Positions 17,406-59,799 of a DNA stretch of 64,000 bases are shown piece by piece (within the stretch, counting starts at the first letter, position 1; each line of letters begins with the position of its first letter). A model generated the notes under the pieces. It searched no databases. It worked only from the letters and a program-made list of their open reading frames with translations, and had not been told where the DNA came from. This stretch comes from Eledone cirrhosa. Lineage: Eukaryota. A program made the position numbers and the translations under genes. The stretch is taken from assembly GCA_964016885.1 (NCBI GenBank), contig OZ024743.1, positions 24,180,001 to 24,244,000 on the forward strand. Reading direction: 5' to 3'.

Positions 17406-20400
17406 TTAATAATATCCATAACATGTGTTTGCGTAACTCATAACTTGGCAAGGGTTGTGCATCGTTTCAGAGTTCTGATAAGGGGAGTAAGCGTAATTTG
17501 TAGTAGGACTGGGATTGTAATGGGAGTAAGCGTAATTTGTAGTAGGAGTGGGATCGTAAGGGGAGTAAGCGTAATTTGTAGTAGGAGTGGGATTGTAAGG
17601 GGAGTAAGCGTAATTTGTAGTAGGAGTGGGATCGTAAGGGGAGTAAGCGTAATTTGTAGTAGGAGTGGGATCGTAAGGGGAGTAAGCGTAATTTGTAGTA
17701 GGAGTGGGATTGTAAGGGGAGTAAGCGTAATTTGTAGTAGGAGTGGGATTGTAAGGGGAGTAAGCGTAATTTGTAGTAGGAGTGGGATTGTAAGGGGAGT
17801 AAGCATAATTTGTAATAGGAATGGGATTGTTAGGTGCTATCGGTGTTTCCCTAATATCATAAGACTCTGTATTACCACAGCAATCTGTGATCACAAGTGA
17901 ACATATATTGTCATCATTTTCTTCGATTTCAATATTAATATTTTGTAGACAGTTTTCTTGCGCACCATGAGGGAGGGTTATTGATATTTCATATTCCTCC
18001 ACCTCGTCATCATCTGAATTCTCTATCATTAATGCTGGTGTAACTTGATATTCCTCCGTCTGTAATACATATTCTGGTGGAGAATGTTCTATTTCATTAA
18101 TATATAGTAGTGGAAGAGATGCCTCAGCTTTAAATTCCGATGAAGTAGGCTTTTCTTTTGTATATGTTGGTGAAACAAACTGTTCAACCCCTTTGAGTTT
18201 ACCGACTGATTCGATCGGTTTTTCCTTGAATTCAGATTCTATAAGTTCTTCTTTGCATTCAGTTAAAAATGTCGGTTCTATGGACTCTACTATCACTTCG
18301 GATGTATCAGCTTGCTCTATAGACAGTGTTTTGAATTCTGGTATATCTGCTGATTCTATAGGTTCGTCTTTGACTCCAGGTATATGTACCGGTTCTATAG
18401 GTTCTTTCACTTCAGGTGTATCCATTGATTTTATAGACTCTGCTTTGACTTCAGGTGTATCCATTGATTTTATAGACTTTGATTTGATTTCAGGTGTATC
18501 CATTGATTTTATAGACACTGCTTTGACTTCAGGTGTATCCATTGATTTTATAGACTTTGATTTGATTTCAGGTGTATCCATTGATTTTATAGACACTGCT
18601 TTGACTTCAGGTGAATCCATTGATTTTATAGACTTTGCTTTGATTTCAGGTGTATCCATCGATTTTATAGACTTTGCTTTGATTTCAGGTGTATCTGCTG
18701 GTTTTATAGTTTCTATTTCCACTTCAGTTTTATAATCCGAAGCGCGTTCATCCTTAACCTCAACCGGCGTAATGGTCTCCACTATCTCCAATTGAGACTC
18801 TTCTGGTGCATCATCTATCTCTATTAATATATCCGTCGCTTCCGGTATTTCAACTATTGGTGGTGTAGTACCAATATATTCCATTGCTAATTGTTGTTCA
18901 ACTTCTTCAATAACATCAACTATTGGTGGTGTAGTACCAATATATTCCATTGCTAATTGTTGTTCAACTTCTTCAATAACATCAACTATCTGGGCTGAGT
19001 GAACATTATTTTTGCTTGCAACTTCCGTTAGTGTTTTCTCTTGCAGTATGCCAGTCATACTCTCCTGGTAATTTGTGTTACCTGGATTGATGTATTGCTC
19101 AACGGCATCAGTATATATTGTGGGAGCTGGGTGAATACATATATGATCGCCACAAAAATCTGATATCAGTACATGTTCATAACAAGAATTTGAAATCTGT
19201 ACACATTCACAACAATCTGATACTTGTACATGTTCTACAGTTTCACAACAGTCTGATACTGGTATACATTCACAACAACACTCTGGGGCCTGTACAATTT
19301 CACAACAGTCTGATACTGGTACAGGTTTATGACAACAGTCTGGTACCAATACAGTTTCACACCAGCAGTCTGCTACTTGTATAGATTTATGACAACAGTA
19401 ACAGCAGTGGTTCGAAACTATCGATGCAATTTGTCGTTCAAAAATCTTCTCCGCCATTCCTAGGATTTTATTTATTACCAATGCTAACATAGCCTCTTCC
19501 TTCACTCCTGCTTCTATAGATTCTTTTTTTACTTCTGTTACTATAGGCTCTAAGTGATCTGTTACTATAGGCTCTAAGTGATCTGTTACTATAGGCTTTA
19601 AGTGATCTGTTACTATAGGCTCTAAGTGATCTGTCTGTGTAAACTTTTCAGTGATGCTTGCTTTATCTGCTGGTTCTGTAGGCTTTACCTTCAACTCATC
19701 TCTCTGTATGGACTGTTCGCTGATGCCCACTTTATCTTCTGTTTCTGTAGGTTTTTTGACGTCTGTTAACTTCACCGATTTTACAGATACTTTTTTGTCA
19801 TTAGTTATATCTACTGGCTTCATAGATACTTCGCCGATTTCTTGTGTATCTGCCCGTTTTATAGATTCTTCTTTGATTTCTGGTATATCTGCTGGTTCTA
19901 TATCCTCTTCTTTTACTTTATTTGTATCTGCCTCCTTTATTCGCTTTTCTGGTACTAATGCCCTATAATTCTCTGTAATATTACCTTCACTAGCTGTCCC
20001 ATCAGACATTTCGTTCGTCAGTGATGATGTATAAAGACCGTCCTTTGATGATTGTTCAAAGCGTGCAGCTTTCGATTTTGTTTTCTCTTGCAGTAAACCA
20101 GTCATATAGTTCTGATAGTATTCTTTATTTGGATCGATGTATTGTACGACGTTACCGGTAAATAACGTGCCGTCTGTATAAATGTATGTTTGATCACAAC
20201 AATTATCTGATATCATTACATGATCACAACAACAATCTGATACCGGTATATGTTGACAATAAGATTGTGATACTGATGGACCTCCACAACAGCCAATCTT
20301 CTCTCGCATTGACACCGGTAGGCAATTATTTCCTCTGACTTCGAACACGGCTAGTTGTTCACAGCTGCATCTCCTGGTGTCCAAAAATCTTATTGATCCA

Positions 20401-20708
20401 CCACTGATTCCTGAGTTCATAGAATTTGTTTGTCGCACACGGGTTTGGTCCTCCAGCCCCAAAACAGTTGGTTTCTCACAGGCATTCCTTGCTATATCAA
20501 AATGAGAGGCGGTAGTTTTCCCTGAATTTGTGTGTGCTTTAGAGACTCCTCCCAAATCCGGAAAGGTCAATGATTCGTGTCTATTCCTCACTGAATTTCC
20601 TTGTTGGCTACCATTATGGTTTTTGCCAGCTGAGGCGATTAGCCTTCGAATGTTATCTATCGTGATCTGTGAAAGAGTTCGGGGTGAATGACTGCCTCTC
20701 ACATTCAT
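17406..20708 (-). CDS. Paralogue 1: 1100-aa Cys-rich, acidic repeat protein of unknown function with a C-terminal Tyr-rich (NYAYSPYNPTPTT)n repeat
   Basis: Uninterrupted 3.3-kb ATG-initiated ORF with much non-repetitive sequence; protein similarity to the other two ORFs; AATAAA at 17344-17349 (minus strand). Confidence 0.85.
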   Translation of the reverse strand: MNVRGSHSPRTLSQITIDNIRRLIASAGKNHNGSQQGNSVRNRHESLTFPDLGGVSKAHTNSGKTTASHFDIARNACEKPTVLGLEDQTRVRQTNSMNSGISGGSIRFLDTRRCSCEQLAVFEVRGNNCLPVSMREKIGCCGGPSVSQSYCQHIPVSDCCCDHVMISDNCCDQTYIYTDGTLFTGNVVQYIDPNKEYYQNYMTGLLQEKTKSKAARFEQSSKDGLYTSSLTNEMSDGTASEGNITENYRALVPEKRIKEADTNKVKEEDIEPADIPEIKEESIKRADTQEIGEVSMKPVDITNDKKVSVKSVKLTDVKKPTETEDKVGISEQSIQRDELKVKPTEPADKASITEKFTQTDHLEPIVTDHLKPIVTDHLEPIVTDHLEPIVTEVKKESIEAGVKEEAMLALVINKILGMAEKIFERQIASIVSNHCCYCCHKSIQVADCWCETVLVPDCCHKPVPVSDCCEIVQAPECCCECIPVSDCCETVEHVQVSDCCECVQISNSCYEHVLISDFCGDHICIHPAPTIYTDAVEQYINPGNTNYQESMTGILQEKTLTEVASKNNVHSAQIVDVIEEVEQQLAMEYIGTTPPIVDVIEEVEQQLAMEYIGTTPPIVEIPEATDILIEIDDAPEESQLEIVETITPVEVKDERASDYKTEVEIETIKPADTPEIKAKSIKSMDTPEIKAKSIKSMDSPEVKAVSIKSMDTPEIKSKSIKSMDTPEVKAVSIKSMDTPEIKSKSIKSMDTPEVKAESIKSMDTPEVKEPIEPVHIPGVKDEPIESADIPEFKTLSIEQADTSEVIVESIEPTFLTECKEELIESEFKEKPIESVGKLKGVEQFVSPTYTKEKPTSSEFKAEASLPLLYINEIEHSPPEYVLQTEEYQVTPALMIENSDDDEVEEYEISITLPHGAQENCLQNINIEIEENDDNICSLVITDCCGNTESYDIRETPIAPNNPIPITNYAYSPYNPTPTTNYAYSPYNPTPTTNYAYSPYNPTPTTNYAYSPYDPTPTTNYAYSPYDPTPTTNYAYSPYNPTPTTNYAYSPYDPTPTTNYAYSHYNPSPTTNYAYSPYQNSETMHNPCQVMSYANTCYGYY

Positions 20709-20739
20709 TGTGTCAGCTCGTTAGTCGCTTTTAGTAGAA

Positions 20740-21535
20740 GTCATGAGATTTGAGATATTCCAGATTGTAGATTAGCTATTTCCGTTGTTAGAGCAGAATA
20801 ATGTTTCTTGCTATGGGATGACACTCGATCTAAATCAAGTCATTTGTTCTCATTGAAGAATATTAGTGCTGAATCCAAGCTTTTCCTACCATCTCAAGTT
20901 TCCCTACAATAAGCAAGCTAAAGATTGTGTGTGTTCTTTAATTTTACGAGTATAACGAAGTCAAGAAAACACAAATTCTCTTTACCTTTACTGTTGTAAT
21001 TCTTATTAATTGTTCCTACCTTCGCAGTCGACTCGGATAATATAAATCCGGTTATACGACCATGTATTTACACTATCTGAACTAAGTCATTTGATAGCGT
21101 CTTGTTAGCGTCTCCGGACAATAGTTTACATAGTGCAGCAGCCTCACACCACAACTACAGTTAGTAGATATGACACCAAAGAGATAACGGTTTTTGTGTC
21201 ATAATTATTACTGTTCCAGTTGATTATTCTTTTTCATATTACCCGAATATAAACACAAATTCCGAGTATAAGTTATTTAATCCATAGTACATAAAAAAAG
21301 TTATTGAGTGCCTCGTAATGGAAATATCTAACAAAGTTTGAAAAATATCTTTCCATGATTTTATTTCAATGATTTCTGTTGCTTTTCTCTGTTGTTTTTG
21401 GTAATGTTGGTGGTGATGATGATGACATTAGATGGTAGTACTATTGTATTACTGTTAAATAGATGCATGCCATAAAACAGTCATACCGATAGTGTGACAG
21501 TTTTAAAGCTATGGAAATTATATTGGTGGCGTTGC
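20740..21535 (-). promoter_or_regulatory. Conserved upstream region of paralogue 1 (5' UTR, possible intron, promoter)
   Basis: Ordered homologous blocks shared with 41190-42080 and 59835-60710 (ttacctttac.gttgtaatt; cgtctt.ttagcgtctc; aaagagataa; tgtgaca..tttaaa). Confidence 0.7.
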
Positions 21536-22696
21536 TGAGGAAATATCTTAAATACAATAACTTCGTATTTGCTTGCTTGCGCCGTTTGTCGTTGTTCAGT
21601 AATGAGTACGCATCTGCGCATGGAGACTAATGCATGAGCCACAATTCTTCAACCATGTGATGCACACGTGGGCAGATGTTGAACCCTGCTTTTGTGTGAC
21701 ATTGATGTTTCTATTCGCAATATAGCACTCCTTTGACTGTAGCCGGGTGGCTTCAAGTGAGGGACGAAACGCCAACAGGCACTAGTATGAGCTAAATCTT
21801 CCCATTAGGCTTGTGGAATCTTGTAAAGATCAAACAATTGTCTCAGTTTATAATAGTAACCTTTCCTCCTGCCACGGAGATCTTTAGCTCAATGTAAATT
21901 ACTAGTAAACTTGGCGCGATAGAAAGAGCAGGAATATGAATTGTATGTCTTTTGCCTGTATGCATTTCAAATTTTGCGTTATTGTTTTTTATATTTTTGC
22001 CTTTTATTTTTTCTTCGATCACCATACCCCCATTTCTTTCTCTTTCTTATTTTCTTTCCGCATAAAGATGCTAATGGAAATTAGGCATTATTGTTAGAAT
22101 TATTGTTCTAAAGCAATAAAATTGAAAGAATTAAATAAAGCAACAAAGGAAGATTCTGCGAAGACTTTACGTTCAAAGCTGGTAAAAGATATATTTATAT
22201 TCAGAAGAGTTCATCTGGAAAGTTCAAAACATCTGAAAATTAATTCGTCTGGATTTAATCCTTTCTAATATTATTGTTCGTAGTGATTCTAGATTTATTG
22301 CTGAGGTTAGGATTAATGGTATATATTAGAATTAACAAAATGGAGATTAAGCTTATTGTTAGATCTAAGATTCATAATTAGAATTATGATCCCTGAGGAT
22401 TCCAGCTTGAAAAGATAAAGTTAATTATCAACATTAGGAGCTGATCATTTTTTAGTTGTTTTAATGTGTATACTTTCAACAATACGATATTTGCTCATGT
22501 TCCTAGTGAAATAAATTTTGACTAGATATACTTTATGACAATTGGCATAAAATAAAACTAAACTCAGATTTTGTTGACTAAACAAAGACAATTCTGTTTC
22601 AGTTTCTGGTTGATACCAATCTAATTCATTTACAATATTAATGCTATTAAGAAAGATATATGAATACAGAATTATAATTATTTTTTATCATCATCG

Positions 22697-22800
22697 AGGG
22701 CGCTGGATTCGCAGTGTCGCTAGATCGTCGGACTACATGCTTTGCGGCATATATTTGCGTTATGAGTTCAAATCCCGCCGAGGTTATCTTTGCTTTTCGG
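22697..22800 (+). mobile_element. tRNA-derived SINE 5' part (main family)
   Basis: B-box gagttcaaatcccgccgaggtt, shared with about 12 other copies. Confidence 0.75.
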
Positions 22801-24255: not shown

Positions 24256-24357
<102 letters not shown>

Positions 24358-24452: not shown

Positions 24453-24499
<47 letters not shown>

Positions 24500-30963: not shown

Positions 30964-30994
30964 GTTGGCAGGTTAAACAGAGAGAGAGGAAGGT

Positions 30995-36402: not shown

Positions 36403-39400
36403 TTAACTCATTACTTGGTTATAGTTTGGCATCATCCAAGAGTTCATGTATGGTGAATAAACATAATTTGTAATATGATTCGTATAAGGTTGTGTAATTC
36501 TTCTTTGCATAATATCACAAGACCCTGTCAAACGACCATAGCAATCTCTATACACATGTCTATATCCTGCTCCATTAATTTCGTCTATGATCTCAATATG
36601 TAGATTTTGTAGACAATACCCACGTCTGGAATAAGGTAATGATACCAATATTTCATATTCGTCCCCGTTGCCAGAATTTAGCAGAATTCTGTTGAGTCCT
36701 TCACATATTTCAAATGTTCTTGATAACGGATTCACGTGTTGACTTACCGGTGGATAAGAATATTCATTCCTTTTTGTCGCTTGTGATGATAAATTTACTG
36801 GTAGAAGACGCTCTTCTTTTACTTTATTTTTAAATACTGGTGGATCAGATGCTTCACTGACCTCAGTTAGAAATACAGGTTCAGCACGTCTTTCATGTTC
36901 AGCCGCATCTGATGATTCTATAAGATCTTTTTTTATTCTATTTGTACCGGGTCGTTTCCTCGTTTTTCTTTTTACTTTAGTTGTTTCTGCTGACTTCATC
37001 GACTTTTTCTTGGCTTCTCGTGTATCTATTGGCTGTACAGAATGTTTTCGTTTTTTTTTTATTTTAGTTCTTCCATCGCTTTTTATATCATCTTCGTTCG
37101 CAGATCTCGATTTTGTTTTCTCTTCTTGTAAATTTGTCTCCTGGTTAATTGCGTCGTCTGAATCGATGTATTCAGTGACTTTTCCATGTGCGCGATTACA
37201 ACAGTGATCGCAACATTCTGATTCATATATAGGTTCTCTAAAACAGTCTGATGCTGATATAGGTTTATTCCAACAGGCCATCTCATAGCTTTGTTTCAAA
37301 CAAGGAAATGAAGTACAATAGATTTTTGGCAGATCAGTTTTCTTCACTTTCCCTTTGACTTTTTTTCTCTTTGCTGTTGGTTCTTCTTCGAAATCAATTT
37401 TATCCTTTGTCTTAGTAGAGTTTTCGCTGATCTCTTCTGTTTCTGTAGGCTCTTCATATATCTCTGACGTACTTTCTTCTGCTAAAGACTTGTCCTGCAT
37501 CTCTGACTCATCTACTTCTTCTAAAGACTCGTCCTGCATCTCTGACTCATCTACTTCTTCTAAAGACTCGTCCTGCATCTCTGATTTATCTACTTCTTCT
37601 AAAGACTCGTCCTGCATCTCTGATGTATCTACTTCTTCTAAAGACTCGTCCTGCATCTCTGATGTATCTACTTCTTCTAAAGACTCGTCCTGCATCTCTG
37701 ATGTATCTACTTCTTCTAAAGACTCGTCCTGCATCTCTGATTTATCTGCTTCTTCTAAAGACTCGTCCTGCATCTCTGATTTATCTGCTTCTTCTAAAGA
37801 CTTCGATGCAACTGAAAGCCTCACCTTCATCTTGATTTTATCATCCCTCGGCTTAGACTTGTATATGATGCCTGATTTATTTGCAGTTATTGTAGGCTCC
37901 ACCTTCAAGTTAATGTTATCGTCTGTCTGTTTAGACTTGTACTTGATGCCTGCTTTATCTGCAGTTATTGTAGGCCTCACCTTCAAGTTAATGTTATCGT
38001 CTGTCTGTTTAGACTTGTACTTGATGCCTGCTTTATCTGCAGTTATTGTAGGCCTCACCTTAAAGTTAATGTTATCGTCTGCCTGTTTAGACTTGTACTT
38101 GATGCCTGCTTTATCTGCAGTTATTGTAGGCCTCACCTTCAAGTTAATGTTATCGTCTGCCTGTTTAGACTTGTACTTGATGCCTGCTTTATCTGCAGTT
38201 ATTGTAGGCCTCACCTTCAAGTTGATTTTATCGTCTGTCTGTTTAGACTTGTAGTTGATGCCTGTTTTATCTGCAGTTTTTGTAGGCCTCACCTTCAAGT
38301 TGATTTTATCGTCTGTCTGTTTAGACTTGTAGTTGATGCCTGCTTTATCTACAGTTTTTGTAGGCCTCACCTTCAAGTTGATTTTATCATCCCTCAGTTT
38401 AGACTTGTAGTTGATGCCTGCTTTATCTGCAGTTTTTGTAGGCCCCACCTTCAAGTAAATTTTATCGTCTGCCTGTTTCGACTTGTAGTTGATGCCTGCT
38501 CTATCTGAAATTGTTGTAGGCCTCACCGTCAAGTTGATTTCATCGTCTTTCTTAGTCGACTTATCGTTCATGCCTGTTTTACCTGCCGTTTTTGTAGGCC
38601 TCACCGTCAAGTTGATTTCACCGTCTGTCTGAGTCGACTTAGCTTTCATGCCTGTTTTACCTGCAGTGTTTGTAGGCCCCACCTTCAAGTTGATTTCACC
38701 GTCTGTCTGAGTCGACTTATCGTTCATGCCTGTTTTACCTGCCGTTTTTGTAGGCCTCACCGTCAAGTTGATTTCACCGTCTGTCTGAGTCGACTTAGCT
38801 TTCATGCCTGTTTTACCTGCAGTGTTTGTAGGCCCCACCTTCAAGTTGATTTCACCGTCTGTCTGAGTCGACTTATCGTTCATGCCTGCTTTACCTGCCG
38901 TTTGTGTAGGCTTCAGCGTCAAGTTGATTTCACCGTCTGTCTGAGTCGACTTAGCTTTCATGCCTGTTTTACCTGCAGTGTTTGTAGGCCCCACCTTCAA
39001 GTTGATTTCACCGTCTGTCTGAGTCGACTTATCGTTCATGCCTGCTTTATTTACAGTTTGTGTAGGCTTCAGCGTCAAGTTGATTTCACCGTCTCTCTGT
39101 TTCGGCTTGTCCTTCATCCCTGCTCCATATGCAGATGTTGTACCCTTCACCTTCAAGTTGAATTCATCGTCTCTCTGTTTCGACTTGTTCATGCCTGCTT
39201 TACTTGCAATTTTTGTAGGCCTCGCCGTCAAGTTGATTTCATCGTCTCTCTGTTTCGGCTTGTCCTTCATCCCTGCTTCATATGCAGATGTTGTAGGCCT
39301 CACCCTCAAGTTGATTTCATCGTCTCTCTGTTTCGGCTTGTCCTTCATCCCTGCTTCATCTGCAGATGTTGTAGGCCTCACCCTCAAGTTGATTTCATCG

Positions 39401-41169
39401 TCTCTCTGTTTCGGCTTGTCCTTCATCCCTGCTTCATCTGCAGATATTGTAGGCCTCACCCTCAAGTTGATTTCATCGACTCTCTGTTTCATCTTGTCCT
39501 TCGTCCCTGCTTCATCTGCAGATGTTGTAGGCCTCACCCTCAAGTTGATTTCATCGTCTGTCTGTTTTGACTTGTTCATGCCTGCTTTACTTGCAATTTT
39601 TGTAGGCCTCGCGGTCAAGTTGATTTCATCGTCTCTCTGTTTCGACTTGTTCATGCCTGCTTTACCTGCAGTTTTTGTAGGCGTCACCCTCAAGTTGATT
39701 TCATCGTCTGTCTGTTTCGACTTGTTCATGCCTTCTTCATCTGCAGTTTCTTTAGGCTCCTCTTTCACTTCACTTGTATCTGATTTTTTTATGTATGTTT
39801 CTGCTGATCGTGCGTTATAATCTTTTTTAAATTTATATTGGCTATCTTGTGTGTAGTCCTTTAAACCTAGTTGTGAATCAGTAAGTTGTGTCTCCGTTAC
39901 ATAATATGGAAAATCCATGTCGTGTAATTCTGAATCAAACAGCTGTGGTCCTGTCCCATGTCCCTTCCTGACATCAGTTGATTGCATTGCCTGATTTTGC
40001 ATACTAACACGTGACCTCTTTGATATCCCAATATTGGCGTCTAGTGCTTGTTGTTCAGATCCTACAGTACATTCAACTATCTGGCCTGATTTTTTATATT
40101 TCTGTTCAATACTACTTTCGCTTTCTCTATCATGTTTGATTTCAACTTTCGATATTTTTTTCCTCTCCGGTAAATCAACCTCACAATTCTGATATATATC
40201 CCCAGGTGACTCAATGTATTGCGCGACTTCACTGTCAGCTAATGTATGGTCTATTTGAATGAATGTTTGATCGCCACTATCTTTCATCTTTACATGTCTA
40301 CCGCAACTTTCTGATACCGATACATGTTCGTAATTATTTGATATTGATACATGATCTGTTGCCAGTGCACGTTCACAAATATCTAATACCGGTTCAGTTT
40401 CACAACAATAATCTAATACAGGTTCCCTTTCACAACAATATTCTGATATCGGTACACCTTCAAAACTATCTGACGCTGGTATACGGTCGCAAGAGCAGTC
40501 TAACAATGGTGCAATTGTGTGACAGTCTGGCATTTTCTCCGAAATTGACACTGCTGTTTGCTCTTGTAGTAAATCTGTCTTATTTTCCTGATAGTATTCG
40601 TTATTTGGACTCGTGTGTTTTATGACTTCATGGGTAAATATTGTTTGGCCAGTGTCAACACATGTTTGATCGTAATAATTATCTGATACCGGCACCTGTT
40701 GACAAGTACACTCCGAAAGTAGTTCAGTTTCACAATACTCTGGTATCTCCCCTCGCATTGAACAAGTTTTTCCTGTGATCTCTGGTAAGGTTCGAAGTTC
40801 ACAATTCTCATTTGTGATGTCCAAAGATGCTGCAGATCTACCATTGTCACTCGAATCCCCCGAAAACCTATGTCGTACATGTGGTGTTTCTATTACTGTC
40901 AGAGCTTCACAAGGGTCTCTTACAGTATTTGAAGCTGAGTTGTCTGAATGTGTTAGCGGTCTAGAGACGTGTTCCGCAATCACTGAAACCGTGCATGGAT
41001 CAGAGGTCGTCCTTACAATATCCGAACAAGGCTCTGGTTCTTGTCTATCATTCACTGAATCTACTTGGCTACAATTCTGTTTTTTTGTAGCTGAGGCGAT
41101 TAATCTTCGACAGTTCGCTTCCGTGATCTCCGAAAGAGTTAGTGGTGAATAATTATCGGACGAAGACAT
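36403..41169 (-). CDS. Paralogue 2: 1588-aa protein with a Cys-rich N-region, Lys/Thr-rich 26-27-aa repeats and acidic 13-aa (ESLEEVDTSEMQD)n repeats
   Basis: Uninterrupted 4.8-kb ORF; the N-terminus aligns with paralogue 1 (SPxTLSxIT..N.RRLIASA); C-terminal YEI...CLQNLHIEI and TNYVYSPY. Confidence 0.85.
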   Translation of the reverse strand: MSSSDNYSPLTLSEITEANCRRLIASATKKQNCSQVDSVNDRQEPEPCSDIVRTTSDPCTVSVIAEHVSRPLTHSDNSASNTVRDPCEALTVIETPHVRHRFSGDSSDNGRSAASLDITNENCELRTLPEITGKTCSMRGEIPEYCETELLSECTCQQVPVSDNYYDQTCVDTGQTIFTHEVIKHTSPNNEYYQENKTDLLQEQTAVSISEKMPDCHTIAPLLDCSCDRIPASDSFEGVPISEYCCEREPVLDYCCETEPVLDICERALATDHVSISNNYEHVSVSESCGRHVKMKDSGDQTFIQIDHTLADSEVAQYIESPGDIYQNCEVDLPERKKISKVEIKHDRESESSIEQKYKKSGQIVECTVGSEQQALDANIGISKRSRVSMQNQAMQSTDVRKGHGTGPQLFDSELHDMDFPYYVTETQLTDSQLGLKDYTQDSQYKFKKDYNARSAETYIKKSDTSEVKEEPKETADEEGMNKSKQTDDEINLRVTPTKTAGKAGMNKSKQRDDEINLTARPTKIASKAGMNKSKQTDDEINLRVRPTTSADEAGTKDKMKQRVDEINLRVRPTISADEAGMKDKPKQRDDEINLRVRPTTSADEAGMKDKPKQRDDEINLRVRPTTSAYEAGMKDKPKQRDDEINLTARPTKIASKAGMNKSKQRDDEFNLKVKGTTSAYGAGMKDKPKQRDGEINLTLKPTQTVNKAGMNDKSTQTDGEINLKVGPTNTAGKTGMKAKSTQTDGEINLTLKPTQTAGKAGMNDKSTQTDGEINLKVGPTNTAGKTGMKAKSTQTDGEINLTVRPTKTAGKTGMNDKSTQTDGEINLKVGPTNTAGKTGMKAKSTQTDGEINLTVRPTKTAGKTGMNDKSTKKDDEINLTVRPTTISDRAGINYKSKQADDKIYLKVGPTKTADKAGINYKSKLRDDKINLKVRPTKTVDKAGINYKSKQTDDKINLKVRPTKTADKTGINYKSKQTDDKINLKVRPTITADKAGIKYKSKQADDNINLKVRPTITADKAGIKYKSKQADDNINFKVRPTITADKAGIKYKSKQTDDNINLKVRPTITADKAGIKYKSKQTDDNINLKVEPTITANKSGIIYKSKPRDDKIKMKVRLSVASKSLEEADKSEMQDESLEEADKSEMQDESLEEVDTSEMQDESLEEVDTSEMQDESLEEVDTSEMQDESLEEVDKSEMQDESLEEVDESEMQDESLEEVDESEMQDKSLAEESTSEIYEEPTETEEISENSTKTKDKIDFEEEPTAKRKKVKGKVKKTDLPKIYCTSFPCLKQSYEMACWNKPISASDCFREPIYESECCDHCCNRAHGKVTEYIDSDDAINQETNLQEEKTKSRSANEDDIKSDGRTKIKKKRKHSVQPIDTREAKKKSMKSAETTKVKRKTRKRPGTNRIKKDLIESSDAAEHERRAEPVFLTEVSEASDPPVFKNKVKEERLLPVNLSSQATKRNEYSYPPVSQHVNPLSRTFEICEGLNRILLNSGNGDEYEILVSLPYSRRGYCLQNLHIEIIDEINGAGYRHVYRDCYGRLTGSCDIMQRRITQPYTNHITNYVYSPYMNSWMMPNYNQVMS

Positions 41170-41189
41170 TGTCGCGGGTAGTTAGTTGC

Positions 41190-42080
41190 TTTTAGTAGCG
41201 GTTGAGATATCTCTGATGTTCCGGATTTTAGGTGAGCTCTCTCTGTTTTTAGTGCAGGATAATTTTGTTTCTTGCTATCATCTCATGACCTATTCAAGTC
41301 AATGTCATTTGCTACCACCGATGTGGTATAGTCAAGATACTATTGATGTGGTATAGTCAAAATACTATTGATGTTTGTTTTAACATTTTTTGCAATATCA
41401 TTTCTTGCAAACTCAACTACATTAAAATATTAATAAATAAGCTTAAGATTGCGTATGTACTTTAATTTTACCAACATAACGAAGTTATGAAAACAAAAAT
41501 TCATTTTACCTTTACAGTTGTAATTTTCTTTCATTTTCTATACGTTCAACTGTCTACTCGGATAATATAAACCCGCTTCTACGACTACATATCTATACTA
41601 AACTATAAGAGCTACGTCATTCCATAGCGTCTTATTAGCGTCTCTAGAGGAGAATTGTGTAATAAATGCAGCAACCTCACACCACAACCACAATAAGAAA
41701 ATATGAAACAAAAGAGATAACGGTTTTTGTGCCATACTAACTATATTAACTACTGTTCCTCTTGTTGGAAATAAATTCCAGTTATTAATTCTTTTCCCGA
41801 TTATCCGAATATAAATCTAAAATCTGGGTGAATGTGATTAAATTCATAATACATAAAAATTGTTATTAAGTGCATCACATCCTAATATATAACAAACGAA
41901 GTTTTAAAAATACAGTTGACGCTTTTTTTTTCTTCTTATTTTGCTTTACGTCGCTAGTGACTGCAGTGATGGTGATGATGATAGTATTAAATTGTGATGG
42001 TGTTTCTTTTTTTTTTTATTTTCAATAGAATTTTGTTATCAAGCAGACATTCTCTTAATGTGACAGATTTAAATATAGAA
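41190..42080 (-). promoter_or_regulatory. Conserved upstream region of paralogue 2
   Basis: Same ordered blocks as 20740-21535 and 59835-60710. Confidence 0.7.
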
Positions 42081-51050: not shown

Positions 51051-51461
51051 AGTCAATTATGTTAGAAATAGTCGGGCTGGAGACTCGATCGCGTGGTAGA
51101 ACCACTGGGATTGAAGGACACGTAGCCTTTTTCAGGGCATTCTTCTAGGAGAAGACAACTCAGGAAACTGGGATAACTCTGACATAAAACCTGCGGCTCA
51201 GTAGTTACCGATGAATGATGTTGATCTTTTCTTCTTTTCGGGTTGGAGCTACTGTCTCTCAGAGAGTGAGATTGGCTCAGTGCACAGCCTTTCCTCAATT
51301 AAAAAAAAATATTCATGCATAGGCATTGCACGATAGAATTAATTAATAATTATAAATAATGTTATATCGTGCAATGGCCATACTTGATAACGAGGGGGCA
51401 GCCATCATGTATGTATGTATGTATGTATGTATGTATGTATGTATGTATGTATGTATGTATG

Positions 51462-51580
51462 TTTATCTCTTTCTCTTAATTTCGAGTACATTTTTTTTGA
51501 CCGGCCACCTTCCTGGTGGCAAGGTTGTAAAAGAAAAGAAATTGTCATCCCTTGAATCGCAAGAATGTTTTGCAAATTTT
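51462..51580 (-). mobile_element. Extreme 3' end of R4-like family A, inside (TATG)n
   Basis: Near-exact reverse complement of about 52373-52489, with TATG repeats on both sides. Confidence 0.9.
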
Positions 51581-51940
51581 ATGTATGTATGTATGTGTAC
51601 TTACATATTGCACGGCTTTTCGCTTATAATATATTTGATCTGTAGATCTATAAATGTGATGTGGATTTGTTTCTACCTTATATTTTCATTATATCGTAGA
51701 TGCATGGCAACATTTATTGCACACCATAGCTTGTATTTTATGATCACTAGAATTGCACTGCTTACTATACATAAACAGCTGTTCATACGTGCCTACTTAC
51801 CTACCTACCTGTCTGCATTCATACATACATACATACATGCATACATACATACATACATACATACATACATACATACATACATACATACATACATACATAC
51901 ATACATACATACATACATACATACATACATACATACGTAC

Positions 51941-52489
51941 ACAACCATCTGGAACGCACTTCGGAAAACAAAATTAACAACAAACGAGGAAGAATATATT
52001 GAGACAGATGGCACTAAGGAATACTGGTGGAACCTGAAAATAAAAACTGCCACCAAATTAAAGCACAACCGGCCTGATATTGTAGTTTGGGACCACACAT
52101 TGAAAACGTGTTCTGTTGTGGAGATCAGCTGCCCACTTGATGTAAACGTTGTCAGAAAAATACAGGAGAAGGAGGACATCTACGGACCATTGATGAGGAG
52201 TTTACAAATCCAGTATCCAAGATACACCTTTAGCTTCATACCCATCATTATTGGTGCTACGGGTTATATACCAACCCGCTTGGACCAAAGTATGACTGAA
52301 CTTGGATTTGCGGACAAAAAGCGCAGCTCCCTAATTCATAGTCTACAAATGGCTGCGATAGCTGGCACCTTCAAAATTTGCAAAACATTCTTGCGATTCA
52401 AGGGATGACAATTTCTTTTCTTTTACAACCTTGCCACCAGGAAGGTGGCCGGTCAAAAAAATATACTCAAAATTAAGAGAAAGAGAAAA
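51941..52489 (+). mobile_element. 5'-truncated R4-like RLE element, family A
   Basis: KHNRPDIVVWD...VVEISCP...KEDIYGPL RLE motifs; (CATA)n on both sides. Confidence 0.9.
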
Positions 52490-52603
52490 CGTACATACAT
52501 ACGTACGTACATACATACATGCATACATACATACGTACATACATACGTACATGCATACATACATACGTACATACATACATACATACATACATACATACAT
52601 ACA

Positions 52604-52635
<32 letters not shown>

Positions 52636-53480
52636 CACGAAATACCTGATTTACAAAAGAGATAGGGATGCAGGCAAAACACCTAGATGTGATAACAAGT
52701 GCAGACTCTGCAGAACTAACATCGAGGATATCACCCATGTCATCAGCAGCTGTCCAAAGATGTCATCGCGGTACTATCTACCTATGAGGCATGATGTAGT
52801 GGCCAAAACACTGTACACTCTAAAAAGATAGCCCCGATAATAAACACATTAAAAGCTACAGCAATTAGGAAGAAATCCATGTACATAATAAGAAAGAGTA
52901 CCTGTGGAATATTCCAGCAAAAACCCCAATAAAATGCAGGCATAACAGACCAGATATTATGATATGGGACAGGGAGAAGAAAGCATGCACAGTAGTGGAA
53001 ATTAGCTGCCCAGCAGATGCCAATCTAATCTCAAAGATTAGTGAAAAGGAGAATATTTATGCAGAACTAATGAGAAATCTGCAGATACTCCACCCTGATA
53101 ACACCTTCAGATTTATGCCTGTGGTTATTGGGGCACTGGGGTATGTTAGTAACTGCCTCAAGGCAAATCTTGAGAAGCTAGGGTTCACAGGAACAGAAAG
53201 AACACAATTAGTTAGGAAATTACAAGTACGATCCATTAATGGAACAGTAAAAATATGTAAAACATTCCAAAAATGTTGCATCTAATAACTGCATAAACAC
53301 ATGTACAGATGCAAAGCATATACACATGCACACATACAACTCAAAACATACACATCCACACATACAATAACATCCATATCTACACATGCATGCATACATA
53401 CATATCTACCTAGTTGAGTATCTATGTTAGAAACCGACTCTCTATTGGTAAAACTTTGTGAAATTATAAAACCAGAAGAA
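52636..53480 (+). mobile_element. 5'-truncated R4-like element, family B
   Basis: CRLC...HVISSC...RHD Zn knuckle plus RLE; nearly identical to 54523-55409; (CATA)n flanks. Confidence 0.92.
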
Positions 53481-53660
53481 CATACATACATACATACGTA
53501 CATACATACATACGTACGTACGTACGTGTATACATACATACATACATACATACATGCATACATGCATGCATACATACATACATACATACATACATACATA
53601 CATACATACATACATACATACATACATACATACATACATACATACATACATACATACATA

Positions 53661-55409
53661 AAAATCTTGACCTGGTTTCAACGTTCTCAAAGGATATAGG
53701 AATAGAGTTTGGCCAAGATAAATGCTCATACATGACTGTAAAGCGGGGAAAAACAGCAACCCAATCTAGCAACATTGTCATCAATGGTCTAACTGCTTCA
53801 CCGATATCTGATGAGGACTGCTACAGATACCTGGGGATAGATGAGAACATATCCTATAATGGTATCTGTAATAAAGAACGCGTAACCAGGGAATACTACA
53901 CCCGATTAAGAAAGATATGGTCATCGGAACTCTCTGCGCAAAACAAAACAGTGGCGCACAATGTGTTTGCTGTGCCTGTCCTAACACCAACGTTTGGAAT
54001 ACTCAATTGGACGATAGACGAAATCCGAGCAGTTGATGTTGGAACTCGAAAAATACTGAACAACACCGGAAACTTCCACATCAACAGTGACATAGACCGC
54101 CCTTACTTGAAACGTAAGCAGGGAGGCAGAGGCCTAATATCAGTCCAGACAACATTTGAATGTCGCATCATATCTCTCAGACAACATCTACGAACCTCGA
54201 AGCGTAGGATCCCGCTTCTCGAGCAAGTCTATCTGCATGAAACAGATAAGATCATGAGAGTTGGGAAGGAACTCCTTGAGAGATATTCCCTGTGTGATAA
54301 TCAAAAACTCACACCCAGGGATGTCGCTCAGCAGTATCGCAGTGAATCCATGGATGAAAAACTGCATGCCTATCAGCAAAAAATCATGCATGGATATGTT
54401 GCCAGGAAGCTCCAGACTGAAAGTAATATAGATAAGGAAAGTAGTCTATCTTGGACCAACAACCGCTATATTGGCTCCCACTTTGAAGGATACGCTTTTG
54501 CAGTCCAAGAACAGGGGATTAGCACGAAATACCTGATTCACAAAAGAGATAGGGATGCAGGCAAAACACCTAGATGTGATAACAAGTGCAGACTCTGCAG
54601 AACTAACATCGAGGATATCACCCATGTCATCAGCAGCTGCCCAAAGATGTCATCGCGATACTATCTACCTATGAGGCATGATGCAGTGGCCAAAACACTG
54701 TACAATGCAGTTCGTAAAAAAGATAGCCCCGATAACAAACACATTAAAAGCTACAACAATGTGGAAGACAGCCATGTACATAATATGAAAGAGTACTGGT
54801 GGAATGTTCTAGTAAAAACCCCAATAAAATGCAGGAATAACAGACCAGATATTATGATATGGGACAGGGAGAAGAAAACATGCACAGTAGTGGAAATTAG
54901 CTGCCCAGCAGATGCCAATATAATATCAAAGATTAGTGAAAAGGAGAATATTTATGCAGAACTGATGAGAAATCTGCAGATACTCCACCCTGACTATACC
55001 TTCAGATTTATGCCTGTGATTATTGGGGCACTGGGATATGTTAGTAACTGCCTCAATACAAATATTGAGAAGCTAGGCTTCACAGGAACAGAAAGAACAC
55101 AACTAGTTAGGAAATTACAAGTACAATCCATTAATGGAACAGTAAAAATATGTAAAACATTCCAAAAATGTTGCATCTAATAACTGCATATACACATGTA
55201 CAGATACAAAGCATATACACATGCACACATACAACTCAAAACATACACATCCACACATACAATAACATCCATATCTACACACACATGCATGCCTACATAC
55301 ATATCTACCTAGTTGATGTGTAAATTCCAAGGAGAGAGTCTTGTGTCTATGTTAGAAACCGACTCTCTCTCTATTGGTAAAACTTTGTGAAATTATAAAA
55401 CCAGAAGAA
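53661..55409 (+). mobile_element. 5'-truncated R4-like element, family B, with an open 482-aa frame (53732-55180)
   Basis: YRYLG (RT end), GGRGL, CRLC..H...C, RHD, NRPDI, EISCP, KENIY; (CATA)n flanks. Confidence 0.93.
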
Positions 55410-55770: not shown

Positions 55771-55798
55771 AAACCCGAACAGAATAAATTTATTTAGG
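55771..55798 (-). terminator. Conserved polyadenylation signal block of paralogue 3
   Basis: AATAAA at 55789-55794 (minus strand), in the shared context. Confidence 0.65.
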
Positions 55799-55863: not shown

Positions 55864-58800
55864 TCATATGTGATGTACAAACCCATGGGCGAAGCATGGT
55901 GAACAAATGCTATTTGTATTATGAGTGATGTTATATGGTGTCTGTGTTGTTGGTGTCTCTGTTGTTTTCATAACTTCATAAGATGTTACTGTTTTTCCTG
56001 AGCAATCTTCGATTTCAATATGTAGATTTTGTAAGCAATGATGATGAGAGTGTTCAGTGAGCATTAATTCAAATTCGTTCTCGCGGCCATAATCTAATGT
56101 TCCAATCAGTGTTGTCTTAGAGACTTCAGATATGTTATTTGTTCGTGATAGTGAACATGTATTTACCTGTGAATATTCGCATGTTGCAATTGGAAATGCT
56201 GATGGAGCATGCTCGCATATCATTTGTGGTATATCTACTAGTTGAATACTCTCTTCTACTTCAGTTATAAATAATTGTGGAAGAGAAGCTTGTTCTATAA
56301 GCCCTTCGCTTTCGTTTGTATCGACTGTTATTATCAATTCTTCATCAACTTCAGTTATATCCTCTGCTTCTATAAGATATTCTTCTACTTCAGGTATAGC
56401 TACCGTTTCTAAAAGTTCTATAGGATATTCTTCGACTTCAGCTATAGCTACTGTTTCGAAAATTTCTATAGGATATTCTTCGACTTCAGCTATAGCTACT
56501 GTTTCGAAAGGTTCTATAGGATATTCTTTGACTTCAGCTATAGCTACTGTTTCGAAAAGTTCTATAGGATATTCTTCGACTTCAGCTGTAGCTACTGTTT
56601 CGAAAGGTTCTCTAGGATATTCTTCGACTTCAGCTATAGCTACTGTTTTTAAAAGTTCTATAGGATATTCTTCGACTTCACTTGTATGTTTCGGTTCTAT
56701 AGACTCTTTTACGATTTCAGTTATATCCACTGCTTCTATAGGATCTTCTTCGGCTTTAGCTGTAACTGCCAGTTCTATAGGCACTTCTTCAACTTCAGTT
56801 AAATCAACTTGTTCTATAGCTTCTTCTTCGACTTCAGTTTTATCCACTGGTCCTATAGGCTCTTCCTTCATTTCAGGTGTATATGCCGGTCCTATAGGCT
56901 CTTTCTCCACTTCAGGTGTATATGCCGGTTCTATAGGCTCTTCCTCCACTTCAGGTGTATATGCCGGTTCTATAGGCTCTTCCTCCACTTCAGGTGTATA
57001 TGCCGGTTCTATAGGCTCTTCCTTCACTTCAGGTGTATATGCCGGTTCTATAGGTTCTTCCTTCACTTCAGGTGTATGTGTCGGTACCATAGCTTCTTCG
57101 TTCATTTCAGCTTTAATTTTCGGTTCTATAGGCTTTTCCTCCACTTCAGGTGTATATGACGGTTTTATGTGCTCTTCCTTCACTTCAGGTGTATATGCCA
57201 GTTTTATAGGCTCTTTCTTCACTTCAGGTGTATATGCCGGTTTTATAGGCTCTTCCTTCACTTCAGGTGTATATGCCGGTTTTATAGGCTCTTCCTTCAC
57301 TTCGGGTGTATATGCCGGTTTTATAGGCTCTTTCTTCACTTCAGGTGTATATGCCGGTTTTATAGGCTCTTTCTTCACTTCAGGTGTATATGCCGGTTTT
57401 ATAGGCTCTTTCTTCACTTCAGGTGTATATGATGGTTTTATAGGCTTTTCCTTCACTTCAGGTGTATATGCCGGTTTTATAGGCTCTTTCTTCACTTCAG
57501 GTGTATATGTCGGTTTTATAGGCTCTTCCTTCACTTCAGGTGTATATGCCGGTTTTATAGGCTCTTCCTTCACTTCAGGTGTATATGCCGGTTTTATAGG
57601 CTCTTCCTTCACTTCAGGTGTATATGCCGGTTTTATAGGCTCTTCCTTCACTTCGGGTGTATATGCCGGTTTTATAGGCTCTTTCTTCACTTCTGGTGTA
57701 TATGCCGGTTTTATAGGCTCTTCTTTCACTGCAGGTGTATATGCTGGTTTTATAGGCTCTACCTTCACTTCAGGTGTAAATGCCGGTTTTATAGGCTCTT
57801 CCTTCACCTCAGGTGTATATGACGGTTTTATAGGCTTTTCCTTCACTTCAGGTGTATATACCGGTTTTATAGGCTCTTCCTTCACTTCAGGTATATATGC
57901 CGGTTTTATAGGCTCTTCTTTCACTTCAGGTGTATATGCCCGTTTTATAGGCTCTTCTTTCACTTCAGGTATATATGCCGGTTTTATAGGCTCTTCTTTC
58001 ACTTCAGGTGTATATGCCGGTTTTATAGGCTCTTCTTTCACTTCAGGTGTATATGCCGGTTTTATAGGCTCTTCCTTCACTTCAGGTGTATATGCCGGTT
58101 CTATAGGCTCTTCCTCCACTGGAGGTGTATATGCCGGTTCAATAGGCTCTTCCTCCACTTCAGGTGTATATACCGGTTCTATAGGCTTTTCCTTCACTTC
58201 AGGTGTATATACCGGTTCTATAGGCTCTTCCTCCACTTCAGGTGTATATGCCGGTTCTATAGGCTCTTCCTCCACTTCAGGTGTATATGCCGGTTCTATA
58301 GGTTCTTCGTTCACTTCAGGTGTATGTGTCGGTACCATAGCTTCTTCGTTCACTTCAGCTTTAATTTTCGGTTCTATAGGCTTTTCCTCCACTTCAGGTG
58401 TATATGCCGGTTCTATAGGTTCTTCGTTCACTTCAGGTGTATATGCCGGTGCCATAGCTTCTTCGTTCACTTCAGCTTTAATTTTCGGTTTTATAGGCTC
58501 TTTCTCCACTTCAGGTGTATATGCCGGTTCTATAGGTTCTTCGTTCACTTTAGGTGTATATGCCGGTTTTATGGGCTTTTCCTTCACTTTAGGTGTATAT
58601 GCCAGTTCCGTAGGTTCTTCTTTCACTTCAGCTATATAAACGGGAGCGCGTTCATCCACAACCTCAACCGGCATAATGGGATCATAATTTATATCAGATA
58701 TTGGAAATATTGCTAGGGCTGGAGATGACGAAATGGGTTCAACTATGTGACATGTTTCAATAATTTCCTCACTCTGTAGTAGCTCCAGCTCCAAGATTTC

Positions 58801-59799
58801 CTCGGTCTCCACTATCTCCAATTGGGACTCTTCTGGTGTACCACCTATCTCTAATAATATATCCGTTACTCCTTCCGATATTTCACATATTGGTGGTGTA
58901 GTATCAATATATTCTATTGCTAAGTCTTGTTCCACTTCTTCAGTAATATCAACTATCTGGGCTGAGCAAATATCAATTTTACTTGCAACTTCCGTCAATA
59001 TGTCAGTGTCACTCTCCTGGTAATTTTTGTTAACTGTATCGATGTATTGCTCAGCGGCATCAGTATATATTGTGTGAGCTGGGTGAATACATATATTATC
59101 GCAACAGCAATCTGATACCAGTGTATCTTTGTACCAAGACTCCGATATCGGGACATGTTCATAACAACAGTCTGGCACCGGTACATGTTCATGACAACAG
59201 TCTGGCACCGGTACATGCTCATGAAAACAGACTGGTACCGGTACATGTTTATGACAACAGTCTGGTACCGGTACATGCTCATGAAAACAGACTGGTACCG
59301 GTACATGTTTATGACAACAGTCTGGTACCGGTACATGTTTATGACAATAACCTGGTACCGGTACATGTTTATGACAATAGCCTGGTACCGGTACATGTTT
59401 ATGACAATAGCCTGGTACCGGTCCATGTTTATGACAATAGCCTGGTACCGGTACATGTTTATGACAATAGCCTGGTACTTGTACATGTTTATGACAATAG
59501 CCTGGTACCGGTACATGTTTATGACAACAGCCTGGTACCGGTACATGTTTATAGCAATAGCCTGGTACCGGTACATGTTTATGACAACAACCTCGTCCCG
59601 GTACATGTTGATAACAACAGCTTGAATCCTTTATATATTCACAACATTCTGATACTAATGCAGGTTTACAGCTAATATCTGATACCGATCTATGTTCATG
59701 ACAACAGTTAAGAGGTGCATAGTGGCAAATTCGCATTGGGCCATGCCTCGTCATCGCTGAATACCCATGTTGTCTATGATAGTGCTCCTTGGTATTCAT
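55864..59799 (-). CDS. Paralogue 3: 1311-aa protein with His/Cys 10-aa repeats (CHKHVPVPGY)n, a long (PAYTPEVKEEPIK)n array and 15-aa acidic repeats
   Basis: Uninterrupted 3.9-kb ORF; CIHPAHTIYTDAAEQYI...TTPPI closely matches paralogue 1; C-terminal CLQNLHIEIEDCSG. Confidence 0.85.
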   Translation of the reverse strand: MNTKEHYHRQHGYSAMTRHGPMRICHYAPLNCCHEHRSVSDISCKPALVSECCEYIKDSSCCYQHVPGRGCCHKHVPVPGYCYKHVPVPGCCHKHVPVPGYCHKHVQVPGYCHKHVPVPGYCHKHGPVPGYCHKHVPVPGYCHKHVPVPGYCHKHVPVPDCCHKHVPVPVCFHEHVPVPDCCHKHVPVPVCFHEHVPVPDCCHEHVPVPDCCYEHVPISESWYKDTLVSDCCCDNICIHPAHTIYTDAAEQYIDTVNKNYQESDTDILTEVASKIDICSAQIVDITEEVEQDLAIEYIDTTPPICEISEGVTDILLEIGGTPEESQLEIVETEEILELELLQSEEIIETCHIVEPISSSPALAIFPISDINYDPIMPVEVVDERAPVYIAEVKEEPTELAYTPKVKEKPIKPAYTPKVNEEPIEPAYTPEVEKEPIKPKIKAEVNEEAMAPAYTPEVNEEPIEPAYTPEVEEKPIEPKIKAEVNEEAMVPTHTPEVNEEPIEPAYTPEVEEEPIEPAYTPEVEEEPIEPVYTPEVKEKPIEPVYTPEVEEEPIEPAYTPPVEEEPIEPAYTPEVKEEPIKPAYTPEVKEEPIKPAYTPEVKEEPIKPAYIPEVKEEPIKRAYTPEVKEEPIKPAYIPEVKEEPIKPVYTPEVKEKPIKPSYTPEVKEEPIKPAFTPEVKVEPIKPAYTPAVKEEPIKPAYTPEVKKEPIKPAYTPEVKEEPIKPAYTPEVKEEPIKPAYTPEVKEEPIKPAYTPEVKEEPIKPTYTPEVKKEPIKPAYTPEVKEKPIKPSYTPEVKKEPIKPAYTPEVKKEPIKPAYTPEVKKEPIKPAYTPEVKEEPIKPAYTPEVKEEPIKPAYTPEVKKEPIKLAYTPEVKEEHIKPSYTPEVEEKPIEPKIKAEMNEEAMVPTHTPEVKEEPIEPAYTPEVKEEPIEPAYTPEVEEEPIEPAYTPEVEEEPIEPAYTPEVEKEPIGPAYTPEMKEEPIGPVDKTEVEEEAIEQVDLTEVEEVPIELAVTAKAEEDPIEAVDITEIVKESIEPKHTSEVEEYPIELLKTVAIAEVEEYPREPFETVATAEVEEYPIELFETVAIAEVKEYPIEPFETVAIAEVEEYPIEIFETVAIAEVEEYPIELLETVAIPEVEEYLIEAEDITEVDEELIITVDTNESEGLIEQASLPQLFITEVEESIQLVDIPQMICEHAPSAFPIATCEYSQVNTCSLSRTNNISEVSKTTLIGTLDYGRENEFELMLTEHSHHHCLQNLHIEIEDCSGKTVTSYEVMKTTETPTTQTPYNITHNTNSICSPCFAHGFVHHI

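What the first reader, a model, noticed from the sequence alone, without database searches (positions are those of the whole stretch)
19033..59101. Shared module of about 40 aa following each Cys-rich segment, present 2, 3 and 1 times
Seen: a block D(Q/H)..I....T.....V.QYI......YQ....L.QEKT follows Cys-rich stretches. It occurs in paralogue 1 at about 20079-20195 and 19033-19147, in paralogue 2 at about 40554-40670, 40158-40272 and (degenerate) 37113-37209, and in paralogue 3 at about 58996-59101. Inference: the proteins were built by duplicating a [Cys-rich + module + 13-mer spacer] cassette, and the module may be a new small domain or interaction motif.
Basis: partly seen in the sequence, partly recalled or inferred. 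Interest (0 to 1): 0.75.

Follow-up and report, generated by a model that had tools for sequence, protein, structure and literature searches.

The report
Drifting linker in octopod Cys-rich proteins
A 39-amino-acid stretch is repeated six times across three neighbouring genes that have no relatives in the databases searched, but it changes as freely as unselected DNA, so it is likely a linker copied along with the cysteine-rich repeats of probable structural proteins rather than a new protein domain.

Summary
Three tandem minus-strand ORFs (1100, 1588 and 1311 aa) carry the block 2, 3 and 1 times, always directly after a Cys-rich decamer array. Five copies are firmly homologous (leave-one-out HMM E 3e-7 to 3e-21). 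The sixth is degenerate but significant at DNA level. The cassette-duplication idea is largely right. The 'new domain' idea is not supported. Across five copies dN/dS is 1.0-1.3 (95% range about 0.85-2), and invariant columns number 4 of 37 against 3.9 expected under neutrality. Nucleotide distance equals that of the genes' non-coding flanks, and one copy has lost the 'QEKT' end. No homologue was found in Pfam, PDB, 1.84 billion representatives or elsewhere in this 3-Gb, octopod-type genome. Best reading: an orphan three-gene family of disordered, intracellular, Cys-cross-linking structural proteins (sperm-tail or epithelial; tissue untested), in which the module is a passively copied linker. 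A new family of a known kind; modest interest.

The parts
17406..20708 (-). Gene 1 ORF (P1, 1100 aa): N-terminus, Cys array A, module a, link, 13-mer-like spacer, Cys array B, module b, link, 13-mer array, C-terminal core, Tyr/Pro-rich 13-mer tail
   Evidence: arrays
36403..41169 (-). Gene 2 ORF (P2, 1588 aa): Cys+module a, Cys+module b, link, basic 26-mer x25, acidic 13-mer x8, Cys+degenerate module c, basic spacer, C-terminal core
   Evidence: arrays 37818-39757 and 37476-37802
55864..59799 (-). Gene 3 ORF (P3, 1311 aa): His/Cys decamer x16, module, link, Pro/Glu/Lys 13-mer x51, acidic 16-mer x6, C-terminal core
   Evidence: arrays 59149-59621, 56655-58638, 56368-56680
20079..20195 (-). Module copy P1a (aa 172-210)
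   Evidence: leave-one-out E 1e-17
19032..19148 (-). Module copy P1b (aa 521-559)
   Evidence: E 3e-21
40555..40671 (-). Module copy P2a (aa 167-205); followed directly by the next Cys array, no spacer
   Evidence: E 7e-11
40156..40272 (-). Module copy P2b (aa 300-338), the fastest-evolving full copy
   Evidence: E 3e-7; branch dN/dS 2.6, p=0.10
37111..37209 (-). Degenerate module copy P2c (aa 1321-1353), several deletions
   Evidence: E 0.037; DNA-level p 0.000-0.022
58990..59100 (-). Module copy P3a (aa 234-270); 15-nt deletion removes the QEKT end; about 90% nt identity to P1b
20196..20372 (-). P1 Cys-rich array A (degenerate decamers)
19149..19406 (-). P1 Cys-rich decamer array B
40672..40803 (-). 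P2 Cys-rich segment A
40273..40524 (-). P2 Cys-rich decamer array B
37210..37317 (-). P2 Cys-rich segment C
59101..59724 (-). P3 Cys/His decamer array (30-bp unit, 15.8 copies)
17835..18002 (-). P1 C-terminal core with CLQNINIEI...DCCG; constrained segment
36490..36669 (-). P2 C-terminal core with CLQNLHIEI...DCYG
55951..56082 (-). P3 C-terminal core with CLQNLHIEIEDCSG
20709..21550 (-). Gene 1 upstream region, paralogous to those of genes 2 and 3 and found nowhere else of comparable length in the genome; possible 5'-UTR splice donor at 20973-20987 (inferred)
41170..42075 (-). Gene 2 upstream paralogous region; same donor-like site at 41497-41511
59800..60720 (-). Gene 3 upstream paralogous region; same donor-like site at 60076-60090
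17339..17350 (-). Conserved AATAAA poly(A) signal of gene 1 (also 36322-36333 and 55784-55795), followed by a GT-rich tract

Best explanation
The 39-residue block is the stretch that follows the last cysteine decamer and was copied with it by internal and whole-gene duplications; it evolves at the neutral rate and is likely a flexible linker, not a folded domain, inside three mostly disordered proteins that likely act as intracellular cross-linked scaffolds. Shown: homology, position, neutral-rate evolution, ORF retention, no signal peptide or membrane helix, shared promoter-side and poly(A)-side flanks, constraint on the C-terminal core. Inferred: the CC-containing decamers would cross-link chains by disulfides or Zn/Cu, the charged 13- and 26-mer arrays would act as extended spacers, and the C-terminal CLQN core would be the real assembly or anchoring site. 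The most likely place is the sperm-tail accessory fibres, next a cornifying epithelium; the tissue is untested. Likely history: a one-cassette gene became a two-cassette gene, and whole-gene tandem copies followed. Gene 2 re-duplicated Cys+module locally. Module plus link were recently homogenised between genes 1 and 3.
For: dN/dS of five copies 1.28, grid 95% range 0.85-2, no purifying site class; IQ-TREE 0.98-1.31 for five and 0.77-1.21 for six copies over three models; two independent pairs 1.14. Invariant columns 4 of 37 vs 3.9 simulated, >=4-of-5 columns 13 vs 12.4. Identity, BLOSUM and hydropathy agreement not above 1000 neutral simulations (P 0.39, 0.25, 0.11), whereas the C-terminal core gives P 0.008, 0.009, 0.001 in the same test. 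K2P distance P1a/P2a 0.35 vs non-coding upstream 0.32 and 3' 0.37 for the same gene pair. QEKT deleted in P3a, several deletions in P2c. A FoldIndex-type score is negative for 6 of 6 copies and for 63-88% of each protein. ORFs kept: a neutral branch of 0.17 would give 12-20 stops per gene in the non-array parts, with no stop-free run in 2000. No hydrophobic N-terminal stretch, maximal 19-residue hydropathy 1.18. P1b/P3a and the link behind are at K 0.11-0.13 vs 0.34-0.52 elsewhere for the same gene pair. Octopus sperm tails have outer dense fibres and a fibrous sheath (PMC11753710, passages).
Against: Four copies keep exactly 39 residues without a gap. Non-coding flanks carry 2.7-3.7 indels per 100 nt, 21 of 71 a multiple of three, so about 3 in-frame indels would be expected on that tree (my arithmetic; post hoc, since the block was defined as gap-free). 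Of 15 pairwise tests, two cross-cassette pairs lean to purifying selection (0.39, p=0.07 each), two with P2c give about 0.04 (dS saturated, gapped alignment) and two with P2b give >1 (3.8 and 5.3, p=0.03). Only 39 codons x 5 paralogues: a handful of constrained sites (D1, T10, Y27, Q28) cannot be excluded. The C-terminal control used 42 ungapped columns of 60 in a gapped protein alignment, which can inflate it; its single-rate dN/dS is 0.77 (range 0.5-1.25) in one model. Disulfide or metal cross-linking and tissue are not tested by any search.
Confidence: 0.62

Rival explanations
1. The module is a short interaction or assembly motif (for example a cross-beta or partner-binding segment) whose length and hydrophobic pattern are held while the sequence is under mixed purifying and diversifying selection, as in reproductive proteins.
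For: Four gap-free 39-aa copies; every Cys array keeps a copy behind it, 6 of 6; hydropathy correlation 0.63 vs 0.53 neutral, P=0.11; P2b pairs have dN/dS 3.8 and 5.3, p=0.03; the core is not derived from the decamer or, with one marginal exception (p=0.04 of 6), from the 13-mer.
Against: A three-class site model gains only 1.7 log-likelihood units x2 over all-neutral; P2b branch p=0.10; QEKT lost in P3a and deletions in P2c.
Confidence: 0.2
2. The module is a new autonomously folded small domain, or folds together with the last Cys decamers as a disulfide- or metal-stabilised unit.
For: Significant homology among copies; AlphaFold draws five short strands, but at pLDDT 42; the last two decamers show mildly conservative change (P 0.026 and 0.031).
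Against: dN/dS range 0.85-2 excludes the strong constraint usual for folded domains; disorder-type composition in 6 of 6 copies; no Pfam match above a cut-off and no PDB match below E 0.07.
Confidence: 0.08
3. The proteins are metal-storage or detoxifying proteins (metallothionein-like) with the module as inter-domain linker.
For: CC pairs 13, 4 and 11; His-rich decamers in P3.
Against: Cys is 2-4% overall and CxC is rare (7, 2, 1), whereas cephalopod metallothionein is 72 aa, 29% Cys, CxC-patterned (PMC9781358, passages); no Pfam metallothionein match; 1100-1600 aa mostly of charged spacers.
Confidence: 0.06
4. The ORFs are non-functional by-products of duplicated repeat-rich DNA.
For: dN/dS about 1 over the module and link; 5 of 6 allelic base differences in P1 change the residue.
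Against: Three ORFs open at about 0.3-0.4 pairwise divergence, where neutral drift gives 12-20 stops each; aligned ATG and conserved AATAAA in 3 of 3; constrained C-terminal core; the one allelic indel in P1 is in frame.
Confidence: 0.04

Closest known systems
Simple epidermal-differentiation-complex genes, e.g. avian EDCRP; mammalian ultra-high-sulfur KRTAPs (PMC4423139, passages seen)
   Same: Tandem genes with one coding exon (here inferred from single ORFs, possibly behind a non-coding exon), CC-containing repeats of about 7-10 residues, variable repeat number, unique conserved terminal segments, conserved proximal upstream DNA, no signal peptide.
   Different: No sequence or Pfam match; mollusc, not amniote; Cys only 2-4% overall against 36% in EDCRP; long charged 13/26-mer arrays; at most an analogy by convergence.
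Cys/Pro-rich sperm-tail structural proteins (ODF1, SMCP, Drosophila Mst84D/Mst87F; recalled, not from a call)
   Same: Intracellular, Cys-pair repeats, lineage-restricted, fast-evolving, clustered; octopus sperm have outer dense fibres and a fibrous sheath (PMC11753710).
   Different: No homology detected; these proteins are 5-20 times longer and mainly acidic; expression untested.
Mollusc metallothioneins (PMC9781358, passages seen)
   Same: Modular duplication of Cys-rich units.
   Different: Size, Cys content and CxC spacing all differ; no Pfam match.
Titin PEVK and neurofilament tail repeats (recalled)
   Same: The 13-mer array of P3 is Pro/Glu/Val/Lys-rich and predicted disordered.
   Different: Compositional likeness only; no Ig, Fn3 or filament domain in any ORF.

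Membership tests
   dN/dS 1.0-1.3; 4 of 37 invariant vs 3.9 neutral
   pLDDT 42, pTM 0.19 on a six-row alignment
   only this locus in G000; no true hit in 1.84 billion representatives or the word search; coverage of octopod proteins in these libraries is unknown
KRTAP / SPRR / LCE / EDCRP | Sequence match to the family models | tested here: not met
   no such Pfam family at E<=1 for 3 whole proteins or 11 segments
KRTAP / SPRR / LCE / EDCRP | Whole coding region in one exon, tandem cluster, CC repeats | tested here: met
   (single ORFs with aligned ATG and poly(A) signal; splicing not seen directly)
KRTAP / SPRR / LCE / EDCRP | Expression in cornifying cells and cross-linking | not testable with these tools
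   needs tissue RNA or protein data
Metallothionein | Small, about 30% Cys, CxC clusters | tested here: not met
Secreted cephalopod structural proteins (egg-case, beak, sucker-ring types) | N-terminal signal peptide | tested here: not met
   best 8-residue hydropathy in the first 40 aa is 0.38-0.82; in-frame stops 4-5 codons upstream of each ATG
Sperm-tail accessory proteins | Testis-specific expression and flagellar location | not testable with these tools
   needs tissue RNA or protein data

The most novel reading that the evidence does not exclude
An octopod-specific family of giant, disordered, Cys-cross-linked scaffold proteins, convergent on amniote KRTAP/EDC proteins, in which Cys-decamers plus the 39-aa module form a new length-constrained assembly unit under diversifying selection, and the C-terminal CLQN core is a new small domain; it would be a candidate for the unknown material of octopus sperm dense fibres or a cornified epithelium.
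Probability: 0.2. Interest if true: 0.6.

Novelty: new variant of a known kind. Interest (0 to 1): 0.3.

Why it matters
The module itself is most likely ordinary: a repeated segment whose likeness reflects recent copying, not constraint. The case shows that passing shuffle and Pfam tests does not make a domain. What remains of value is the host family: three orphan genes under selection to stay open while most of their sequence drifts, with one constrained C-terminal core. If they are sperm-tail or epithelial cross-linking proteins, they would be a mollusc case of convergence on vertebrate cysteine-rich structural proteins and a concrete handle on octopod cell structures.

Tried and rejected
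Homologue searches found nothing real. Word search with P1 aa 1-230: 0 of 391 candidates. Module alignment, longer proteins: 0 of 986. C-terminal alignment, longer proteins: 0 of 1872; shorter fragments were not searched. The full HMMER scan of 1.84 billion representatives gave 3 hits, all summed weak matches in repeat proteins (two named as bacterial by their sources, one unnamed from JGI/IMG), rejected. Pfam and PDB sequences gave nothing above cut-offs. The ESM Atlas could not read the sequence, so that look-up is missing. AlphaFold models were low-confidence (module pLDDT 42; C-terminal core 49, best blocks 63-67) and were not sent to fold search. The two-copy complex of Cys+module gave no answer, score 0.02; not used as evidence. 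No RNA holder listed; the three holders are one sample and behave as genomic DNA, covering intergenic sequence. Derivation of the module core from decamers (0 of 6) or 13-mers (1 of 6 at p=0.04) was not supported. A second N-terminus inside P1, meaning a whole-gene fusion, was not supported at DNA level. Weak genome hits L031, L047 and L050 were treated as chance. No paralogue in 100 kb on either side. Four look-ups of earlier scan findings returned nothing. Five paper searches (listings only) showed no paper that describes these proteins; subscription journals and supplements were not covered. The first two IQ-TREE runs failed to print omega and were repeated.
Full report
Setting. The window lies on a 379-Mb contig of a 3.0-Gb eukaryote genome. 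The genome holds molluscan haemocyanin beta-sandwich units: 39 matches, 35 of them in five runs of seven. Seven units per subunit is the octopod/nautilus pattern (recalled), so I treat the animal as octopod-type. Three long minus-strand ORFs stand in tandem: P1 20708-17409 (1100 aa), P2 41169-36406 (1588 aa) and P3 59799-55867 (1311 aa).

Observation. Among the five full copies, 9 of 10 pairs beat all 2000 shuffles and one was reached by 40. Leave-one-out HMMs recover them at E 3e-7 to 3e-21 with no competing hit in the three proteins. P2c is weak as protein (E 0.037; 2 of 5 pairs not significant) but significant as DNA against 5 of 5 copies. A DNA profile of the 30-bp Cys decamer scores positive up to about residue 4 of each module and not beyond, so each module begins with the tail of the last decamer and then has its own sequence. 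The consensus is loose: only D1 and Q28 are invariant in all six modules.

The genes. The three ORFs are whole-gene paralogues. About 800-900 bp upstream align at 70-74% identity with the ATG in register. An AATAAA plus GT-rich tract is conserved downstream in 3 of 3. The upstream blocks occur nowhere else in the genome at comparable length, so they are not a mobile element. A conserved donor-like site about 270-330 nt above each ATG suggests a non-coding first exon (inferred). In-frame stops lie 4-5 codons above each ATG, and there is no hydrophobic leader or membrane helix. Neutral drift over half the pairwise distance would put 12-20 stops into the non-array parts of each gene, and no run of 2000 was stop-free. 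Contigs of one DNA sample differ from P1 at six coding bases (five change the residue) and by one in-frame 3-base insertion, with no stop or frameshift. No other family member was found in the genome or in 100 kb either side, nor any homologue in the protein collections. These blanks are limited by unknown octopod coverage.

History. Cys arrays, modules and 13-mer spacers are homologous between cassettes at DNA level. The link between module and spacer is not detectably homologous between cassette A and cassette B of P1 (p=0.52), and P2a has no spacer at all. P2b groups with P1a in the best of three trees tested and shares the downstream link and the unit that expanded into the 26-mer array. 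P2a and P2b are therefore a local re-duplication of Cys+module, and P2c most likely answers to P1b. P1b/P3a and the link behind them are only K 0.11-0.13 apart, against 0.34-0.52 for the Cys array, flanks and C-terminus of the same gene pair. That points to recent gene conversion, so the most striking pair says little about constraint.

Is the module a domain? Shuffle tests show descent, not function, so I tested selection. On the five-copy tree dN/dS is 1.28 (grid 95% range 0.85-2), with no purifying site class; invariant columns are 4 of 37 against 3.9 simulated. IQ-TREE gives 0.98-1.31 for five and 0.77-1.21 for six copies. Identity, substitution conservativeness and hydropathy agreement do not exceed 1000 neutral simulations (P 0.39, 0.25, 0.11). 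The P1a/P2a distance (0.35) equals that of the non-coding flanks (0.32 and 0.37). P3a has lost the QEKT end. Against this reading: four copies keep exactly 39 residues where about 3 in-frame indels might be expected (my estimate, post hoc). Of 15 pairwise tests, two lean below 1 at p=0.07, two with the gapped P2c give about 0.04 with saturated dS, and two with P2b exceed 1 at p=0.03. The data are 39 codons in five paralogues, so a few constrained sites remain possible. The AlphaFold model (pLDDT 42) is uninformative.

What is constrained. The C-terminal core E(Y/F)E..L....CLQN(I/L)(N/H)IEI..DC.G passes the same tests that the module fails. P is 0.008, 0.009 and 0.001; a quarter of sites fall near dN/dS 0.06 (2dlnL 9.9); IQ-TREE gives 0.43-0.64. 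The caveat is a gapped alignment of three sequences, 42 of 60 columns used. The last two Cys decamers show mildly conservative change (P 0.026 and 0.031).

Mechanism. Shown: disordered composition (63-88% of windows), CC-rich decamers, charged arrays, no leader. Inferred: decamers cross-link chains by disulfide or metal bridges, arrays act as extended spacers, the C-terminal core anchors or assembles the protein, and the module is a linker carried along with the decamers. This architecture works like avian EDCRP and KRTAPs: single coding exon, CC repeats, conserved termini and promoter (PMC4423139, passages). It is not a member of those families (no Pfam match). Octopus sperm have outer dense fibres and a fibrous sheath (PMC11753710, passages), and near-neutral protein evolution is typical of sperm proteins (own knowledge). 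I therefore rank sperm tail first (about 0.35) and cornifying epithelium second (about 0.2), both untested. Metallothionein membership fails on size, Cys content and spacing (PMC9781358, passages).

Verdict. The repeat is real and the cassette model is mostly right. The 'new domain' is not supported. The host genes are an orphan family of a known kind of protein. Interest 0.3.

Noticed in passing
window 17835-18002, 36490-36669, 55951-56082 (-): C-terminal CLQN(I/L)(N/H)IEI...DC.G core shared by all three proteins; the only segment with clear constraint and a better candidate for a new small domain than the module.
   Followed up: yes
window 18774-19395 vs 58804-59347: Module b plus link of gene 1 and the same part of gene 3 are about 88-90% identical, against 63-73% elsewhere: likely recent gene conversion. 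Gene 1 also has an exact 66-bp tandem duplication at 18850-18989.
   Followed up: partly
window 39760-41700 vs 19605-22780: In the same three DNA runs the unique contig over gene 2 has depth 3.0, 2.6 and 4.7, against 9.0, 6.0 and 9.7 over gene 1. The tool warns that depth is no copy number, so this is only a hint that gene 2 may lie on one haplotype or have a divergent allele.
   Followed up: no
window 20709-21550, 41170-42075, 59800-60720: Paralogous upstream DNA with short near-identical blocks (for example 21098-21114, 41628-41644, 60297-60313) and a conserved donor-like site; candidate tissue-specific promoter elements.
   Followed up: partly
window 27668-32726 (-): A fragmented LINE (ORF1-like, endonuclease and reverse-transcriptase pieces, recognised by eye) lies between genes 1 and 2; related pieces occur in both flanks. 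Other retroelement fragments at 51356-55177.
   Followed up: no
G000:C1:173.74-173.91 Mb and G000:C26:21.93-22.02 Mb: Five seven-unit haemocyanin genes at two loci (three tandem on C1, an inverted pair on C26) plus two units on C27.
   Followed up: no
window 1-8535 and 33565-35976: Long simple arrays (CCA x942, 18-mer x313, TACC x604) give spurious long ORFs; a 200-N gap at 2714-2913.
   Followed up: no
window 17479-17834: P1 alone has expanded a Tyr/Pro/Asn-rich 13-mer nine times after the C-terminal core; P2 and P3 keep one unit.
   Followed up: no
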